A stretch of DNA of 64,000 bases from IMG/VR virus record IMGVR_UViG_3300034175_000069; one strand, given 5' to 3'. The stretch's first letter is position 1, and every line of letters starts with the position of its first letter. Source of the stretch: a virus. Taxonomy: Duplodnaviria; Caudoviricetes. Made by a program: the position numbers and the translations under genes. The notes beneath the pieces are model-generated. The model ran no database searches and had not been told where the DNA came from. It saw only the letters and a list, made by a program, of their open reading frames with translations. Below are positions 14,835-64,000 of the stretch, piece after piece.

Positions 14835-16529
14835 ATGGGTGATCAGCCCGTTGCCCCGCGTTATCTGGAGGACCGAGTGGGTGCCACTCCCGGCCTTGGC
14901 TTGACCTGGCCCGAGATGACCGATCCGGCAGACGGGCCAGATGCCTTCTCGGATCTCGCCGGTCAGGTCGAGAGCTACGTGCTCAACCGCACCCCGGTCA
15001 CCGGTGTCAACCACTACCCGATCCACGACTGGGGCTCGGGCAACGTCCTGCCCGAGAACGCCCGGGTCGGGGACACCTTCTGGCACACCGGGCTGAAGTG
15101 CCGCCTCTGGAACGGCGGATCGACCACCGTCGGGACGGTCACGACGCCGATCTGGCACCAGGCCACGCTGGCCCGGGTAGCCGACCGCGCCGCGCGCCTG
15201 GTCATCTCGGCGAGCTACCCGACGGTCATCTTCGGCGGCTACCAGGTCCAGCAGATTGACGATGGGTCGATCTGGAGCTGGTCCGGTACCGACTGGAAGG
15301 CCGTCGGAGCCGGAGCTGGCGGGGGCGGGGGCAGGCCGGTCCAGGAGACCCTGACCGTCCCCTACGCCTACGACGCTGGAGCCAACCAGTTCACCGGGCC
15401 GAACCCTCCACCGACCGGGGTCCAGCCAGCGATTCCGCCCTTCTCCACTGTCGCCCCTTCTGTGGGCGTCTACGACAACAAGATGTGGGTGTTCGGCAGC
15501 TCGAACACCTACACCAGTGGCGGCGTGACCGGCGGGCTCTGCGCGTACTACGACTTCGCGGCGAACACCTGGACGATGCGGCAGTCCATGCCGACGGTCC
15601 GTTACGGGATGGCCGGAGCGTGGAGTGGCGGGAAGTTCTACGCCATCGCTGGCTACAACGGGGCCAACCGGAACGATATGTACGACCCGGTCACCAACAC
15701 CTGGCTGGCCAAGGCGTCGATACCAACCGCTGTCAACTACCCCGCCGTAGCAGAACTCGACGGCAAGATCTACGTCATCGGTGGCTCCACGAACACCAGC
15801 TACAGCGGTGCATCGAACCTCGTCCAGGTCTACGACACGGTGACCAACACCTGGGAGACCAGGGCGACGATGCCGACCCTCCGGAGTCGGTGCGCCGCCT
15901 TCGTCTACGGCGGCAAGATCTATGTGTTCGGCGGGCTGAGCAACGGATCGTCCACGCTTGGTGTGCTGGAGATGTACGACCCGGCCACCAACATCTGGGT
16001 GGGCAAGGCCGCAGGCCCGAGCACGTACATGCACAGCCTGCTGGTGCACACAGCGCCTGCGGGTGCACCGATCACCACGCCGATGGTCTATGTGTTCGGC
16101 GGTCCTGATTACCCGAACTACATCAGCACCTACAACCCGGTGACGAACATCTGGCAGAGCCTGGGATGGCTGGTCAGCACCTCCTATCTGTTCTCGGTCG
16201 CCACCAGTGGTCCTACGCAGCGCTACGTTCAGAACGGCGGAGCGGCCGTCTACGGCCAGCGGTTCTGGTTCATCGGTGGAGACGGCAACGCCCCTGGCAA
16301 CGCCTTCTGGTGGTACCGGTGGTACGGCTGGAAGGCGAACCCGATCCGGACCCTGGATGGTCCGTCGATTCTTGCCATCATGGAGCCCAACATCACGCTC
16401 CGGAACAACCAGACCCTCTACGAGGGCTCGATCGTTGCCGGGATCCTCAACCAGACCATGACGCCCTACGGGGAGCGGATCCAGAACCGCGACATCGACG
16501 TGCTCAACATCGTCAACGCCGGAGGCTGA
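14835..16529 (+). CDS. Kelch-repeat beta-propeller protein, probably virion/tail-associated
   Basis: Repeated GG...YD(P/T)xTNxW units (GKIYVIGG, GKIYVFGG, MVYVFGG); N-terminal LGLTWPEMTDPADGPDAFSDLA resembles actinophage minor tail proteins. Confidence 0.85.
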   Translation: MGDQPVAPRYLEDRVGATPGLGLTWPEMTDPADGPDAFSDLAGQVESYVLNRTPVTGVNHYPIHDWGSGNVLPENARVGDTFWHTGLKCRLWNGGSTTVGTVTTPIWHQATLARVADRAARLVISASYPTVIFGGYQVQQIDDGSIWSWSGTDWKAVGAGAGGGGGRPVQETLTVPYAYDAGANQFTGPNPPPTGVQPAIPPFSTVAPSVGVYDNKMWVFGSSNTYTSGGVTGGLCAYYDFAANTWTMRQSMPTVRYGMAGAWSGGKFYAIAGYNGANRNDMYDPVTNTWLAKASIPTAVNYPAVAELDGKIYVIGGSTNTSYSGASNLVQVYDTVTNTWETRATMPTLRSRCAAFVYGGKIYVFGGLSNGSSTLGVLEMYDPATNIWVGKAAGPSTYMHSLLVHTAPAGAPITTPMVYVFGGPDYPNYISTYNPVTNIWQSLGWLVSTSYLFSVATSGPTQRYVQNGGAAVYGQRFWFIGGDGNAPGNAFWWYRWYGWKANPIRTLDGPSILAIMEPNITLRNNQTLYEGSIVAGILNQTMTPYGERIQNRDIDVLNIVNAGG

Positions 16530-16534
16530 CAGCT

Positions 16535-16993
16535 ATGACCACGCCCACTGCCACCGACCCCACCGCGCCCACCGTGGCCGACGTGCGGAACGCGCTGGAC
16601 TCCCTGTCCGACGAGCAGCGTCCCGACGGTGAGATCACCGACGCCCAGATCACCGCTGCGATCGAGGCGGTGGATCCGGCGGCGATCATCGCGGCCGAGG
16701 ACGCTCATTGGACGGTGCAGCTCTGGGACCGCCGGTCGCCGATCAACGACGCCAAGGCCGAGCAGATCTTCGCCTCCCGGGACGACATCCCGGGGGTCGG
16801 GGATGTCGTGCTGGTGCTCCGGGACGACCAGGTCACCATGCTCCAGCCGCACCTGCCCAACGTCGCTGGCATCCAGCCGATCCCGGTTGGCCGAGGAGCT
16901 GCGGTGGGGGAGGAGCTGCGCCAGGAGCTGGCCCGGAACCGGGCGTCCGCCGAGGTCATCCAGGGGATCCTCACGCACTTCGGCGTGAGCTGA
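16535..16993 (+). CDS. hypothetical protein
   Basis: ATG at 16535 directly after the Kelch gene; GC3 bias. Confidence 0.7.
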   Translation: MTTPTATDPTAPTVADVRNALDSLSDEQRPDGEITDAQITAAIEAVDPAAIIAAEDAHWTVQLWDRRSPINDAKAEQIFASRDDIPGVGDVVLVLRDDQVTMLQPHLPNVAGIQPIPVGRGAAVGEELRQELARNRASAEVIQGILTHFGVS

Positions 16994-19173: not shown

Positions 19174-20781
19174 GTGTCAACCGCTGATCTGTCCCTGGAG
19201 CAGATCGTCTCGCTGCTGTCCGAGGAGGAGCAGGAAGCGGTCCTCACCGACATGGAGCTGGACGAGCTGCCCTGGGACTGGGGCTGGACCGGCCGCCCCA
19301 GCCAGATCCTCCCCGTCGAGCCGATCGGCCACGGCGAGGACTGGGAGCTGGCCCTGCTGAACGCCGGTCGTGGCTTCGGGAAGACCCGCGCCGGGGCCGA
19401 GTACATCCGGGACGTGGACAAGAAGTGGTCCACCCTGCACCGGGACCCCGGCCAGCAGCTGCGTGTGGCCCTGCTCGGCCGCACGGCCGGGGACGTGCGC
19501 GACACCATCCTGAACGGCCCCTCCGGCCTGCTGCGGATCTACCCGCCGTCGGAGCTGGACAAGGTCGAGTGGATCTCCAGCCAGCGCCGTGTCAACCTCC
19601 CGGGCGGCGGCTTCGCGCTGTGCTTCTCGGCCGAGGAGCCCGACCAGCTCCGTGGCCCGGCGTTCCACGTCGGCTGGGGCGACGAGCTGGCGGCATACAA
19701 GCAGGTCAAGGGCGAGGGTGAGTTGGACGCCTGGACCAACCTCCGGATCGCCGTCCGTCTCGGGATGCTGCCCCAGGTCATCGCCACGACCACGCCGAAG
19801 CGGGTCAAGATCCTGCGTGAGCTGATCGCCGAGATCAAGGAGAACCCGGGGTCGATGCTGCTGCGCACCGGCAAGACCACGGACAACATCCACCTGGCCC
19901 AGTCCTACCTCCAGACCCTGTTCAACCTCTACGGCGGTACCACGCTGGGGGCTCAGGAGCTGGACGGCCTGATGCTGGACGAGGTCAAGGGTGCGACCGT
20001 CTCGATGAAGGTCATCGAGGACAACCGGGTCACCGCCGTGCCGCACCAGCGCCCCGGGACCAACTGGCTGCGCGTGGTCTCGGTGGACCCCTCGGTCGCC
20101 GAGAAGCCGAACGACGAGTGCGGCATCACGGTCATCTACGCCCCGGCCACGATGCCGATCCTCCAGCGCCACGCCTACGTGGTGGACGACCTCTCGCTGA
20201 AGGGCTCCCCGACGGTCTGGGCGGACGTGGTGGTCCGCGCCGCGATCAAGCACCGCGCCACCATCGTGGTGGAGAACAACCAGGGCGGCGGCCTGGTCCG
20301 GCGGCTGATCAAGGAGCGCGCGTCGGCCATGAACGTGGCACCGCCGCCGATCCGCGATGTCTGGTCCTCCCGCTCCAAGGCCGTCCGCGCGGAGCCGATC
20401 GGGGCCGCCTACGAGCGCGGCCGGGTGCACCACCTGAACACCCTGGTCGAGCTGGAGGACCAGCTGTCGGCCTGGACGCCGGAGGACCGGGGCTACTCCC
20501 CTGACCGCCTGGACGCCGTCGTGCACGGCCTGTCCGCGCTGCTGTTCCCCGAGTCGATGACCAAGGGCGGCGGGATTTCCGGAGCTGCCCAGTCGCACTC
20601 GCCGGTCGGCGTGCAGATCCCCCGGGTCGGGTCGGCCATCGCCCGCCGGAGCGGCCTGCGGATCGACACCTCCCGCGCCGTCCAGCGCACGTCCGCCTTC
20701 CGCTCCGGTGCCCCGGGCATGGGAGCGCCCCGCCGGACGCTGCCCGCCCGCCTCATCCCGCCAGGAGGCTCCAGCCAGTGA
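19174..20781 (+). CDS. terL: Terminase large subunit
   Basis: Walker A AGRGFGKT, Walker B WGDE, TTTP coupling motif, nuclease VSVDPS, and SPDRLDA. Confidence 0.95.
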   Translation: MSTADLSLEQIVSLLSEEEQEAVLTDMELDELPWDWGWTGRPSQILPVEPIGHGEDWELALLNAGRGFGKTRAGAEYIRDVDKKWSTLHRDPGQQLRVALLGRTAGDVRDTILNGPSGLLRIYPPSELDKVEWISSQRRVNLPGGGFALCFSAEEPDQLRGPAFHVGWGDELAAYKQVKGEGELDAWTNLRIAVRLGMLPQVIATTTPKRVKILRELIAEIKENPGSMLLRTGKTTDNIHLAQSYLQTLFNLYGGTTLGAQELDGLMLDEVKGATVSMKVIEDNRVTAVPHQRPGTNWLRVVSVDPSVAEKPNDECGITVIYAPATMPILQRHAYVVDDLSLKGSPTVWADVVVRAAIKHRATIVVENNQGGGLVRRLIKERASAMNVAPPPIRDVWSSRSKAVRAEPIGAAYERGRVHHLNTLVELEDQLSAWTPEDRGYSPDRLDAVVHGLSALLFPESMTKGGGISGAAQSHSPVGVQIPRVGSAIARRSGLRIDTSRAVQRTSAFRSGAPGMGAPRRTLPARLIPPGGSSQ

Positions 20782-55584: not shown

Positions 55585-55642
55585 CGGGAGGCCTCCTCTC
55601 TCGTCGTCGTGTAGTTGACATCGGCAAGAATACTCGATGCCT

Positions 55643-62605: not shown

Positions 62606-62788
62606 TCAACTAGATGGGGTTGCAGCTTCCCGCGCGGCGCGGCGTTGCTGCACCAGGTCCCGGGTCCGCACGTCGATCAGCGGCCTGCGGAGCACCTGGC
62701 TGAACATCTCGATCAGCGCCTGGTCGGCGTGGTCCCGGCGAGTCCGGAGGTAGGCCGAGAAGTCGGCCGGACCTGCGTCGTCACTCAC
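62606..62788 (-). CDS. small hypothetical protein
   Basis: GTGA overlap; its stop codon lies inside GTTGACA. Confidence 0.5.
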   Translation of the reverse strand: MSDDAGPADFSAYLRTRRDHADQALIEMFSQVLRRPLIDVRTRDLVQQRRAAREAATPSS

Positions 62789-63501
62789 GTCAGCAGGCCC
62801 TTGCGCTTGGCCTGCCACAGCTTCTCCTCATGCGGCAGGGCGGGCTTGATCCAGTCGCCGGAGTCGCACGCGATCAGGTCCCCGCCCATGTGCTCGGGGT
62901 CGTCCCAGTGCTGGCCGTGGAAGTGGCACCAGAGCCGGGAGGACGGCTTCTCCTCGGCGAACAGGTCGTCCTCGTCCGGCGGGATGTTCATCGTCGGGGC
63001 CCAGCCCTGGGCCAGCTTGTAGCCGTCCTTGGTGATCACGCCGTTCTCCCAGATGGTCTTCATGCCTGGGTCGGCCTTCCCCTGGGACAGGGTGGCGTCG
63101 TGGTGTGTCAACCACTTGGCTGCCAGCTGCTCGGCCACAGCGTCGGACTGCTCTGGGGTGGTGATCATCCCCACCGGGATCCCGTAGACCTGGGAGAGCT
63201 TCTCGGCGATGTCGGCGAAGACCGGGGAGATCTCGTGGTTGAAGGCGGCCATGCTCTCGCCCATCGCGGTGGCGGCCTCGCCGATCGACTTCATCTGCTC
63301 GGTGAGCACAGACGTGTCGAAGTTGAATGAGATCTCTGCTCCCGGGGGCAGCACGGTCAGCTCCTTGCCGTCCTCGCCGTACCAGGTGTCTGGAGCATCT
63401 GGCAGAACGAAGTCCAGGGGAGCGCAGAACCCGCCGCTGGCAAGAAGCATGTGCGACTCGTGCGGCTCCGGCGGGGTCCCGCACTTGCAGATGTCCGTCA
63501 T
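62785..63501 (-). CDS. hypothetical protein carrying a capsid-like ASGGFCAPLD motif
   Basis: ATG 63501 overlaps the upstream stop; motif read directly. Confidence 0.7.
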   Translation of the reverse strand: MTDICKCGTPPEPHESHMLLASGGFCAPLDFVLPDAPDTWYGEDGKELTVLPPGAEISFNFDTSVLTEQMKSIGEAATAMGESMAAFNHEISPVFADIAEKLSQVYGIPVGMITTPEQSDAVAEQLAAKWLTHHDATLSQGKADPGMKTIWENGVITKDGYKLAQGWAPTMNIPPDEDDLFAEEKPSSRLWCHFHGQHWDDPEHMGGDLIACDSGDWIKPALPHEEKLWQAKRKGLLT

Positions 63502-63767
63502 CGACGCCGCTCCTCCGCTGCTGCCCGCTCCGCCCGGTGGGCGAAGATCCCATCCTGGTACCGCTTCTCCAGCGGCGTCCGGGGCACTGCGCCCGTGCGC
63601 AGCTCTCCCCGGCGATCGGGTGTCAACCACTCCGAGAACGTGCCGTGCGTGCAGGTGCACAGCTTGGCCGAGAAGCAGTCGAGGTGGCGGCCCTGCTGGC
63701 ATCGGTCACAGATCCAGGGCTCGGTCTCGTTGTCACCGACGAGCTTCAGCACTGTTGCTTCCCCCAC
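63498..63767 (-). CDS. small Cys/His zinc-binding hypothetical protein
   Basis: CDRC...H..C...CTC.H; GTG start inferred. Confidence 0.55.
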   Translation of the reverse strand: MGEATVLKLVGDNETEPWICDRCQQGRHLDCFSAKLCTCTHGTFSEWLTPDRRGELRTGAVPRTPLEKRYQDGIFAHRAERAAAEERRR

Positions 63768-63779
63768 CCCGGCAGTATC

Positions 63780-63910
63780 GGGCGGCAGCGGGGAGGGGAG
63801 TCGCACCCCACGCCCAGCCTGCACTGACGGTTTCCTCGGCGGGACTAGCCGATGCAGTGGGACCGGTTGCCCGGTGCAGCCCCGCAGATGCTGCTTCGCC
63901 ACTGCCGCCC
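63780..63910 (-). ncRNA. Candidate 131-nt structured RNA (or structured 5' leader)
   Basis: 5' GGGCGGCAGU pairs with 3' GCUGCCGCCC; internal hairpins; begins exactly 6 nt after CATACT. Confidence 0.5.
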
Positions 63911-63937
63911 GGGTGAAGTATGCCCGGCGCACTCAAC
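63911..63937 (-). promoter_or_regulatory. Promoter GTTGAGT-8-CATACT-6 driving the RNA candidate
   Basis: Same geometry as the leaderless promoters elsewhere in the window. Confidence 0.6.
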
Positions 63938-63959
63938 ATCGGGAAGACACGGTGTGTCT

Positions 63960-63996
63960 GTTGACAGTGTTGACATGCTCATGCCATAGTCATCCC
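63960..63996 (+). promoter_or_regulatory. Leaderless promoter with tandem GTTGACA; its gene starts at ATG 63997 and runs out of the window
   Basis: gTTGACAgtgttgacatgctcatgcCATAGTcatcccATG. Confidence 0.75.
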
Positions 63997-64000
63997 ATGA

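What the first reader, a model, noticed from the sequence alone, without database searches (positions are those of the whole stretch)
63780..63937. Promoter-defined 131-nt structured RNA with closed ends and a tRNA-like T-loop
On the minus strand, a promoter of the same family (GTTGAGT-8-CATACT-6) predicts +1 at 63910. That base is not an ATG but the first G of a 10-bp stem pairing the two ends (GGGCGGCAGU/GCUGCCGCCC). Inside are ACCGG-GCAA-CCGGU (GNRA tetraloop), UCGGC-7 nt-GCCGA, GCAG-CAU-CUGC, a CUGCAC/GUGCAG helix, and GGGG-UGCGACU-CCCC, one base from a tRNA T-loop (UUCGACU). It is not a canonical tRNA. It could be a tRNA-mimic or Y-RNA-like ncRNA (for example a decoy for anticodon nucleases or a protein sponge), or a structured leader controlling the gene starting at 63767.
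Basis: partly seen in the sequence, partly recalled or inferred. Interest (0 to 1): 0.7.

Follow-up and report, generated by a model that had tools for sequence, protein, structure and literature searches.

The report
Conserved structured leader RNA in actinophage
A 131-nt non-coding RNA domain sits at the predicted transcription start of a phage early operon whose relatives start translation directly at the promoter; its end-closing helix is kept by compensatory changes in the one other phage that has it, but it is not a tRNA or Y RNA and its function is unknown.

Summary
The promoter (box 63931-63937, -10 at 63917-63922, minus strand) belongs to a family of 17 sites on this 85-kb phage contig. 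In 12 of them an ATG lies exactly 6 nt after the -10. Here a 12-13 bp helix that pairs the ends of a 131-nt segment (63780-63910) begins at that position.

One homologue exists, in an 89.6-kb IMG/VR phage. It has the same promoter and the same 6-nt spacing, and the helix is intact: four of its 12 pairs differ and all still pair (three changed on both sides). Two internal blocks of 18-19 nt are nearly identical, while the flanking spacers are not alignable.

GC3 (72% against 85-93% in genes) and a 23-nt length difference argue against translation. Two other relatives have the same promoter joined directly to a leaderless start codon, so the element is an optional module.

Rfam, ARAGORN and a purpose-built covariance model find no tRNA, Y-RNA or other family membership and no further copies. 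The interior fold is unresolved.

Best reading (about 0.4): an autonomous cis-acting 5' leader domain that protects the transcript's 5' end and makes translation Shine-Dalgarno-dependent. Expression was not tested. Interest is moderate.

The parts
63931..63937 (-). Promoter box (GTTGAGT), 8 nt upstream of the -10. This is the single-box class of the phage's promoter family.
   Evidence: The same box variant is kept at the orthologous promoter in G679, G680 and L078.
63917..63922 (-). -10 hexamer (CATACT)
   Evidence: In 12 of 17 family sites an ATG starts exactly 6 nt downstream.
63910..63910 (-). Predicted transcription start (G, preceded by C), inferred by analogy. It was not measured.
   Evidence: Family spacing rule. 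Orthologous promoters in G680 and L078 have ATG or GTG at this position. A purine at +1 and a pyrimidine at -1 are typical of actinobacteria (PMC3898074).
63899..63910 (-). P1, 5' strand of the closing helix (RNA nt 1-12)
   Evidence: Pairing probability 1.00. Covariation with the homologue.
63780..63791 (-). P1, 3' strand of the closing helix (RNA nt 120-131)
63876..63894 (-). Conserved block A (RNA nt 17-35). It can form a 4- or 5-bp hairpin, or its 3' half can pair with block B.
   Evidence: 18 of 19 nt are identical in G679.
63862..63875 (-). 5-bp hairpin with GCAA tetraloop (RNA nt 36-49), in the variable region. G679 has two larger hairpins here.
63813..63861 (-). Central variable region (RNA nt 50-98). 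The predicted folds differ between the two homologues.
63795..63812 (-). Conserved block B (RNA nt 99-116), which includes the T-loop-like hairpin (4-bp stem, 7-nt loop)
   Evidence: 18 of 18 nt are identical in G679. Its 3' strand is contiguous with P1.
63753..63779 (-). Linker with a G-rich Shine-Dalgarno (about 63758-63770). Its sequence is not conserved in G679 apart from the presence of an SD.
63498..63752 (-). First gene of the operon: an 84-aa Cys-rich protein of unknown function (P0001), GTG start
   Evidence: GC3 85%. Public gene call of 84 aa. Homologues in G679, G680 and L078.
63960..64000 (+). Divergent tandem-box promoter (boxes at 63960 and 63969, -10 at 63985-63990) and leaderless ATG (63997) of an 80-aa gene (phrog_10733) that runs past the window end

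Best explanation
The segment is a real, selectively maintained, non-coding RNA domain. It forms the first 131 nt of a roughly 158-nt leader on the early-operon mRNA that starts with the 84-aa gene at 63752.

Transcription is inferred to start at G 63910, from a promoter that drives leaderless mRNAs in relatives of this phage. From its first nucleotide the RNA pairs with nt 120-131, closing a multi-branched, self-contained domain. A short linker carrying a Shine-Dalgarno follows.

The mechanism I commit to, which is inferred and not shown, is an autonomous cis-acting leader module with three parts.
1. The 5'-terminal helix hides the 5' end and so slows 5'-end-dependent decay by RNase J or RNase E.
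2. The module converts the operon from leaderless to Shine-Dalgarno-dependent initiation.
3. The two strictly conserved internal blocks, one of them a T-loop-type hairpin stacked on the closing helix, give a tertiary fold or a binding site for a phage or host factor.
For: Promoter and start site
- 17 family sites lie on the contig, and 12 have an ATG exactly 6 nt after the -10.
- The orthologous promoter is conserved in G679, G680 and L078. In G680 and L078 an ATG or GTG sits at the position where P1 starts here.

Closing helix P1
- Pairing probability is 1.00 in both homologues.
- 12 of 12 pairs are kept although 4 pairs differ: 3 changed on both sides and 1 from G-U to G-C.
- Random 4+4 substitutions keep all 12 pairs in only 2.8e-4 of trials.
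- The G679 element folds with z = -3.5 to -3.7.

Non-coding
- GC3 is 72% against 85-93% in neighbouring genes.
- The homologues differ in length by 23 nt, and the conserved blocks fall in different relative frames.

Selection and autonomy
- Blocks A and B are 18/19 and 18/18 identical. The linker and promoter spacers are about 35-40% identical, and the neighbouring protein gene is about 66% identical at nucleotide level.
- The domain folds the same way with downstream sequence added, and the SD stays open.
- The gene after the element differs between the two phages.
- It is single copy in the genome.
Against:
- Only two instances exist, so nothing inside P1 is supported by covariation, and the two predicted interiors differ.
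- Fold energy for this copy is unremarkable, and the sense strand is only 3.5-4 kcal/mol better than the antisense strand.
- Compensatory change in a terminal inverted repeat would also be expected of a DNA-level element.
- A simple 5' stabiliser would not need 107 nt of interior or conserved internal blocks.
- Relatives manage without the element, so it is dispensable.
Confidence: 0.4

Rival explanations
1. Regulated or RNA-polymerase-directed leader. The conserved blocks bind a protein or small ligand, or the elongating polymerase as the HK022 put RNAs do. Binding would switch between two pairings (local hairpins, or block A paired with block B) to tune expression or read-through of the early operon.
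For: RNAalifold pairs block A with block B in a helix of about 10 bp, kept in both homologues with one A-U to G-U change. The alternative folds lie within 1-3 kcal/mol of the MFE. The element sits directly after an early promoter and works independently of which gene follows.
Against: There is no conserved expression platform: the linker is not conserved and the SD is predicted open. P1 is too stable to act as a switch helix. Further promoters lie at 62609, 58478, 57545 and 57086, and only one weak terminator-like site lies downstream, so antitermination is not obviously needed. Rfam gives no match.
Confidence: 0.2
2. Stable trans-acting small RNA. The closed 131-nt domain would be released from the 5' end of the transcript and act as a tRNA-like or Y-RNA-like decoy or sponge for a host factor, such as Rsr or a tRNA-targeting defence nuclease.
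For: Paired 5' and 3' ends and a conserved T-loop-type hairpin stacked on the end helix are typical of stable ncRNAs. The domain is autonomous and is found upstream of different genes. The host assembly encodes a TROVE/Rsr protein with tRNA-like/YrlA-like RNAs beside it.
Against: There is no terminator or conserved processing site after P1. Rfam gives no tRNA, tmRNA or YrlA match on the element at E up to 10, although the host's Y-like RNAs are detected the same way. ARAGORN is negative at usable thresholds. The covariance model R1 finds no host look-alike. The stack of helix plus hairpin is 18-19 bp, not the 12 bp of a tRNA minihelix.
Confidence: 0.15
3. DNA-level element. This would be a small insertion bounded by 12-bp terminal inverted repeats (MITE-like), or a pair of protein-binding half-sites, whose symmetry is maintained for reasons unrelated to RNA.
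For: The helix strands are the exact termini of the segment that is present in G000 and G679 and absent from G680 and L078. Inverted repeats co-vary at DNA level too. The sense and antisense strands fold about equally well.
Against: The element is single copy in the 6.5-Mb genome, and no copy was found in the 70 family genomes searched or in related phages. No transposase is nearby and no target duplication is shared by the two copies. One closing pair here is G-U, which is a mismatch at DNA level. The conserved internal blocks and the start exactly at +1 are left unexplained.
Confidence: 0.1
4. No function. The element would be a hitch-hiking piece of GC-rich spacer that happens to fold.
For: The fold energy is in the range of many arbitrary windows. 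Relatives lack the element. Only two copies are known.
Against: The compensatory changes in P1 have P of about 3e-4 under random substitution. Two near-identical blocks of 18-19 nt lie amid unalignable flanks.
Confidence: 0.1
5. Translated N-terminal extension. The open frame 63498-63932 would be read through the element.
For: That frame has no stop and is in phase with the 84-aa gene.
Against: GC3 is 72%. Frame is not conserved across the element between the homologues. The public gene call starts at 63752. The start codon at 63932 lies upstream of the predicted +1.
Confidence: 0.03

Closest known systems
5'-terminal stem-loop mRNA stabilisers (E. coli ompA leader, B. subtilis aprE leader, phage SP82 early-RNA stabiliser); from established knowledge
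   Same: A helix begins at or within a nucleotide of +1 and leaves no single-stranded 5' end. It acts in cis and is portable between downstream genes.
   Different: Those elements are simple hairpins. Here the helix is long-range and closes a 107-130-nt multi-branched interior with conserved blocks. No half-life data exist.
Riboswitch aptamer architecture (a P1 helix closing a multi-helix junction in a 5' UTR)
   Same: The domain lies in a leader, is closed by P1, has conserved internal segments and has possible alternative pairings.
   Different: P1 is 12 GC-rich pairs, too stable to switch. There is no conserved expression platform, no Rfam match, and the downstream genes give no hint of a ligand.
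HK022 put RNAs and lambda nut sites (promoter-proximal antitermination RNAs of phage early operons)
   Same: A structured RNA just downstream of an early phage promoter, acting independently of which gene follows.
   Different: There is no sequence or structural resemblance. Terminators to be overridden are not evident. Relatives with the same operon lack the element.
Bacterial Y RNA-like RNAs (YrlA, RF02553) and tRNA
   Same: Similar size (about 115-130 nt), paired termini, and a hairpin with a 7-nt U-N-C-R-A-type loop.
   Different: The loop has G where tRNA and YrlA have the invariant U55. There is no D-arm or anticodon-arm geometry and no CCA or discriminator shared by both copies. Covariance models do not match it, while the host's own YrlA-like RNAs do match.
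P1/P7 C4 antisense RNA (processed from the leader of its own target operon)
   Same: A small structured RNA encoded between an early or immunity promoter and the genes it precedes.
   Different: No conserved complementarity to downstream mRNA was found beyond generic G-rich SD against C-rich runs. There is no RNase P-type 3' end and no Rfam C4 match.

Membership tests
tRNA / tRNA-like (RF00005, ARAGORN) | Cloverleaf recognised by covariance or heuristic models: a 7-bp acceptor stem, D arm, anticodon arm and T arm at canonical spacing | tested here: not met
   Rfam at E up to 10 gives no tRNA match; the only related hit is Tymo_tRNA-like at 13 bits, E 7.2. ARAGORN finds none in the window at this place and none at default or -ps settings. 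At 80% threshold with introns it gives inconsistent calls in the two homologues.
tRNA / tRNA-like (RF00005, ARAGORN) | T loop U54-U55-C56-R57-A58 on a 5-bp stem directly abutting the 7-bp acceptor strand | tested here: not met
   The loop reads U-G-C-G-A-C-U, with G at position 55. The stem is 4 bp here and 6 bp in G679, and it is followed by a 12-bp closing strand with 3 or 1 intervening nt.
Y RNA-like (YrlA, RF02553) | Match to the family model, with a tRNA-like module plus an Rsr-binding stem and genomic linkage to rsr | tested here: not met
   The element gives no YrlA hit. The host rsr locus (TROVE) carries weak YrlA hits of 31-33 bits, below the family's 69-bit cut-off, together with tRNA-model hits. 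No rsr gene lies on the phage contig near the element.
Any Rfam 15 family (riboswitches, ribozymes, C4, 6S, 6C and others) | Score at or near the gathering threshold | tested here: not met
   The best hits in 63000-64000 have E of 0.44 or worse, all far below gathering, and none lies on the element except the noise hit noted above.
Structured cis-acting 5' leader | Lies between a promoter's +1 and the first start codon on the coding strand | tested here: met
   Promoter family census and orthologous leaderless promoters. The gene start at 63752 has an SD. The +1 is inferred, not measured.
Structured cis-acting 5' leader | Non-coding | tested here: met
   GC3 72%. No frame is conserved between the homologues.
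Structured cis-acting 5' leader | Structure supported by covariation | tested here: inconclusive
   P1 has 3 compensatory pairs and 1 half-compensatory pair, with none broken. With only two sequences the interior helices are invariant or not shared.
Structured cis-acting 5' leader | Transcribed, and affects expression or stability of the downstream genes | not testable with these tools
MITE-like mobile element | Multiple copies, terminal inverted repeats and target-site duplication | tested here: not met
   Terminal inverted repeats are present. The element is single copy by BLAST and by covariance model in its own genome, and no copy was found in the 70 family genomes or 3 related phages searched. 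The two copies share no target duplication.

The most novel reading that the evidence does not exclude
The two copies are the founding members of a new class of phage-made, T-loop-bearing small RNA. It would be transcribed from +1 of a promoter type otherwise reserved for leaderless mRNAs, released as a closed particle of about 130-155 nt, and act in trans on a host factor. One possibility is a decoy for the host's Rsr/Y-RNA machinery or for a tRNA-directed defence nuclease.
Probability: 0.1. Interest if true: 0.8.

Novelty: new member of a known kind. Interest (0 to 1): 0.45.

Why it matters
Structured RNAs of actinobacteriophages are almost uncharted. This one has a clean natural comparison: the same conserved promoter either abuts a leaderless start codon (two relatives) or is followed by this RNA module plus a Shine-Dalgarno (two phages).

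That makes a direct test possible of what a 5' structured domain adds to a leaderless-type transcription unit in a high-GC host, whether stability, timing or factor binding. The portable, promoter-flush, end-closed domain could also serve as a 5' insulator or stabiliser part for Actinobacteria.

If it proves to be a trans-acting decoy, it would add an RNA-based entry to phage counter-defence. With only two copies and no expression data, the present value is that of a well-supported candidate motif, not a mechanism.

Tried and rejected
Homologue hunting
- blastn against 50,697 phage records found nothing. DNA search of 70 genomes of the same family gave only chance-level hits.
- The two downstream proteins are orphans among 5.8 billion proteins, in IMG/VR and in 400 genomes of the class.
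- The divergent 80-aa protein has no relatives in genome contigs or phage records. A phrog_10733 hit in G010 is chromosomal and not syntenic.
- Its four database homologues lie in loci that lack the element.
- The scan that found relatives used the phage's tandem-box promoter as a pattern.
- Exact-pattern scans with the conserved blocks returned only the G679 contig, plus unrelated CRISPR repeats, a likely group II intron and coding DNA. These covered IMG/VR, metagenomes and genome contigs with the promoter pattern.
- Covariance model R1 found no further copy in the own genome, the 70 family genomes, G680/G681/G684 or about 110 fetched loci. The best non-self hits, E 0.24 and 0.59, have broken closing helices.
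- A protein-profile scan with the 84-aa gene family found the same two phages again.

Ideas dropped
- RNA anti-CRISPR mimic: the 13-14-nt identity to a CRISPR repeat covers half a repeat in antisense orientation.
- CCA end: 'ACCA' follows P1 only in G679.
- Target duplication: a second -10-like hexamer follows P1 only in G000.
- SD sequestration by the C-rich strand of block B: not predicted in either homologue.

Not obtained
- Negative tallies include the unpublished genome G018. No positive claim rests on it.

Full report
CONTEXT

The window is bases 5784-69783 of an 85,438-bp contig (C109) in a 6.48-Mb, 70% G+C assembly. The contig is a phage genome.
- It carries a large terminase at 19174-20781. 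The best matches in phage records are actinophages at 43-46% identity.
- Its closest environmental relatives are complete 82-90-kb IMG/VR phages.

The element lies in a roughly 245-nt divergent intergenic region.
- To its right, an 80-aa gene (phrog_10733) starts at 63997 on the + strand. It is a leaderless mRNA from a tandem-box promoter and ends at a bidirectional terminator beyond the window.
- To its left, on the minus strand, runs an operon that begins with an 84-aa Cys-rich protein (GTG 63752) and a 238-aa protein. Both are database orphans.

THE OBSERVATION

All stated features are present.

The promoter claim rests on a family that I censused on the contig. The family is a 7-nt box, then 8-9 nt, then a -10 with at least 5 of 6 matches to CATACT. 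There are 17 such sites, and 12 have an ATG beginning exactly 6 nt after the -10, so they give leaderless transcripts. This geometry agrees with mapped actinobacterial promoters: a dominant -10, a purine at +1 and a pyrimidine at -1 (PMC3898074).

The site at 63917-63937 fits the single-box class, but G 63910 stands where the start codon would be. From that base a 12-bp helix pairs with 63780-63791, extending to 13 bp with the preceding C.

Thermodynamics alone would not carry the finding. The z-score is -1.8 to -2.0, and the segment ranks only in the top 2.5-3.9% of arbitrary windows after G+C correction. Helices of this quality, however, start at only 3.8e-4 of positions. Coincidence with a predicted +1 is therefore roughly a 1-in-1000 event, before allowing for post-hoc choice among about 17 promoters.

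COMPARATIVE EVIDENCE

Ordinary homology searches failed. Scanning IMG/VR for the phage's own tandem-box promoter found three relatives.

One relative carries a homologue of the element.
- G679 (IMGVR_UViG_3300025875_000006; the same contig appears in the metagenome set) has it at C1:18738-18891.
- It has the same box, the same -10 and the same 6-nt distance to the first base of a 12-bp closing helix. Its length is 154 nt, and it folds with z about -3.5.

In the closing helix, four of the twelve pairs differ between the two phages and all twelve still pair. Three pairs changed on both sides and one changed from G-U to G-C. In a simulation of four random substitutions per strand, all twelve pairs survive in only 2.8e-4 of trials.

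Conservation inside the element is uneven.
- Two blocks are nearly identical: RNA nt 17-35 (18 of 19) and nt 99-116 (18 of 18, the T-loop-like hairpin).
- The central region has indels of 12, 10 and 1 nt.
- The linker to the start codon and the promoter spacers are essentially unalignable.
- The neighbouring divergent gene is only about 45% identical in protein and about 66% in DNA.

This pattern indicates selection on the element itself rather than recent common descent of the whole region.

NOT CODING

The frame that is open from 63932 into the 84-aa gene has GC3 of 72%, against 85-93% for neighbouring genes. The 23-nt length difference puts the two conserved blocks in different relative frames in the two phages. 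The public gene call is the 84-aa form.

AN OPTIONAL MODULE

Two further relatives keep the orthologous promoter but join it directly to a start codon.
- In G680 an ATG lies 6 nt after the -10.
- In the metagenome contig L078 a GTG does.

Homologues of the 84-aa gene lie downstream in all four. The gene immediately after the element differs between G000 and G679.

The divergent 80-aa gene is present with or without the element. L078, L079 and L080 have it at 75-77% identity without the element, and G680 has neither. The two are therefore not a fixed pair.

The element is single copy in its own genome. It was not found in the 70 genomes of the same family or in other related phages, by BLAST or by a covariance model built from the two copies.

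WHAT IT IS NOT

- Rfam 15 at E up to 10 gives nothing on the element.
- ARAGORN gives nothing at default or lowered settings. With introns allowed at 80% of threshold it returns different, mutually inconsistent 'tRNAs' in the two homologues.
- As a positive control for the Y-RNA idea, the host assembly does encode a TROVE/Rsr protein. Beside it lie tRNA-like RNAs that the same Rfam scan flags as tRNA (39-63 bits) and weakly as YrlA. They have canonical UUCGA T loops. The phage element resembles none of them, by Rfam or by R1.
- The conserved hairpin loop meets the minimal U...A T-loop pattern but has G where tRNAs have U55. Together with the closing helix it would form an 18-19-bp stack, not the 12-bp tRNA minihelix.

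WHAT REMAINS OPEN

Only P1 is established. The predicted interiors differ between the homologues. Block A and block B can each form a local hairpin or pair with one another in a helix of about 10 bp that both copies keep. The alternatives lie within 1-3 kcal/mol. The sense strand folds only 3.5-4 kcal/mol better than the antisense strand. Together with one G-U pair in P1, this is only weak evidence that selection acts on the RNA rather than on a DNA inverted repeat. Expression could not be examined.

MECHANISM

The domain keeps its fold when downstream sequence is added, and it leaves the Shine-Dalgarno accessible. The linker is not conserved, and P1 is far too stable to act as a switch helix. 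These points fit an autonomous module better than a riboswitch-type regulator.

The reading I favour (0.4) is a cis-acting leader with three features.
- It buries the transcript's 5' end in a helix from +1. By established knowledge of 5'-terminal stem-loops, this protects against 5'-end-dependent RNases.
- It replaces leaderless initiation with SD-dependent initiation.
- Its conserved blocks probably provide a tertiary fold or a factor-binding site.

The rivals and their confidences are:
- regulated or polymerase-directed leader, 0.2;
- released trans-acting decoy RNA, 0.15;
- DNA-level inverted-repeat insertion, 0.1;
- no function, 0.1;
- translated extension, 0.03.

VERDICT

This is a genuine, previously undescribed structured RNA candidate. 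It is well anchored by promoter geometry and by compensatory changes in its closing helix. It is known from only two phages, and its function is unknown. Its kind (a structured leader RNA) is known, but the family is new. Interest is moderate.

Noticed in passing
whole contig; e.g. window 8286, 9823, 12547, 41325, 57051, 57510, 58442, 63997: There is a strikingly uniform promoter family: two 7-nt GTTGACA boxes 2 nt apart, then 8-9 nt, the -10, 6 nt and an ATG. Many of the leaderless genes begin Met-Thr-Gln. GTTGACA also recurs many times inside coding regions, often as CGGTTGACACG, which recalls the stoperator sites of mycobacteriophage L5-type repressors.
   Followed up: partly
The transcript from it would be non-coding.
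   Followed up: no
window 55614-55641 (+): A single-box promoter of the same family has no start codon at +1. It points antisense into the minus-strand genes, so it may give an antisense or leadered transcript.
   Followed up: no
G000 contig C2:156706-157722 and L223:2641-3164 (-): The host assembly has a TROVE/Rsr (Ro60-like) gene. Beside it is a cluster of one canonical tRNA and three tRNA-like RNAs of about 125 nt with large insertions. They give weak YrlA hits and so form a bacterial Y-RNA locus.
   Followed up: partly
window 16467-16557 (-): ARAGORN calls a 91-nt tRNA-Arg(CCG) that overlaps long open frames. Its length is unusual for tRNA-Arg, so it may be a false call or an odd phage tRNA.
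   Followed up: no
L042, L047, L050, L052, L053, L058, L059, L071, L073, L075, L076 (soil metagenome contigs): A conserved structured sequence starts GUGCGAC directly after a gene's stop codon and shares the 18-nt block B string by chance. It is probably the 5' part of a group II intron family.
   Followed up: no
L078:2163-2283 (-): In this relative the orthologous promoter drives a leaderless 41-aa CxxC...CxxC mini-protein (GTG start) that the source's gene caller did not call.
   Followed up: no
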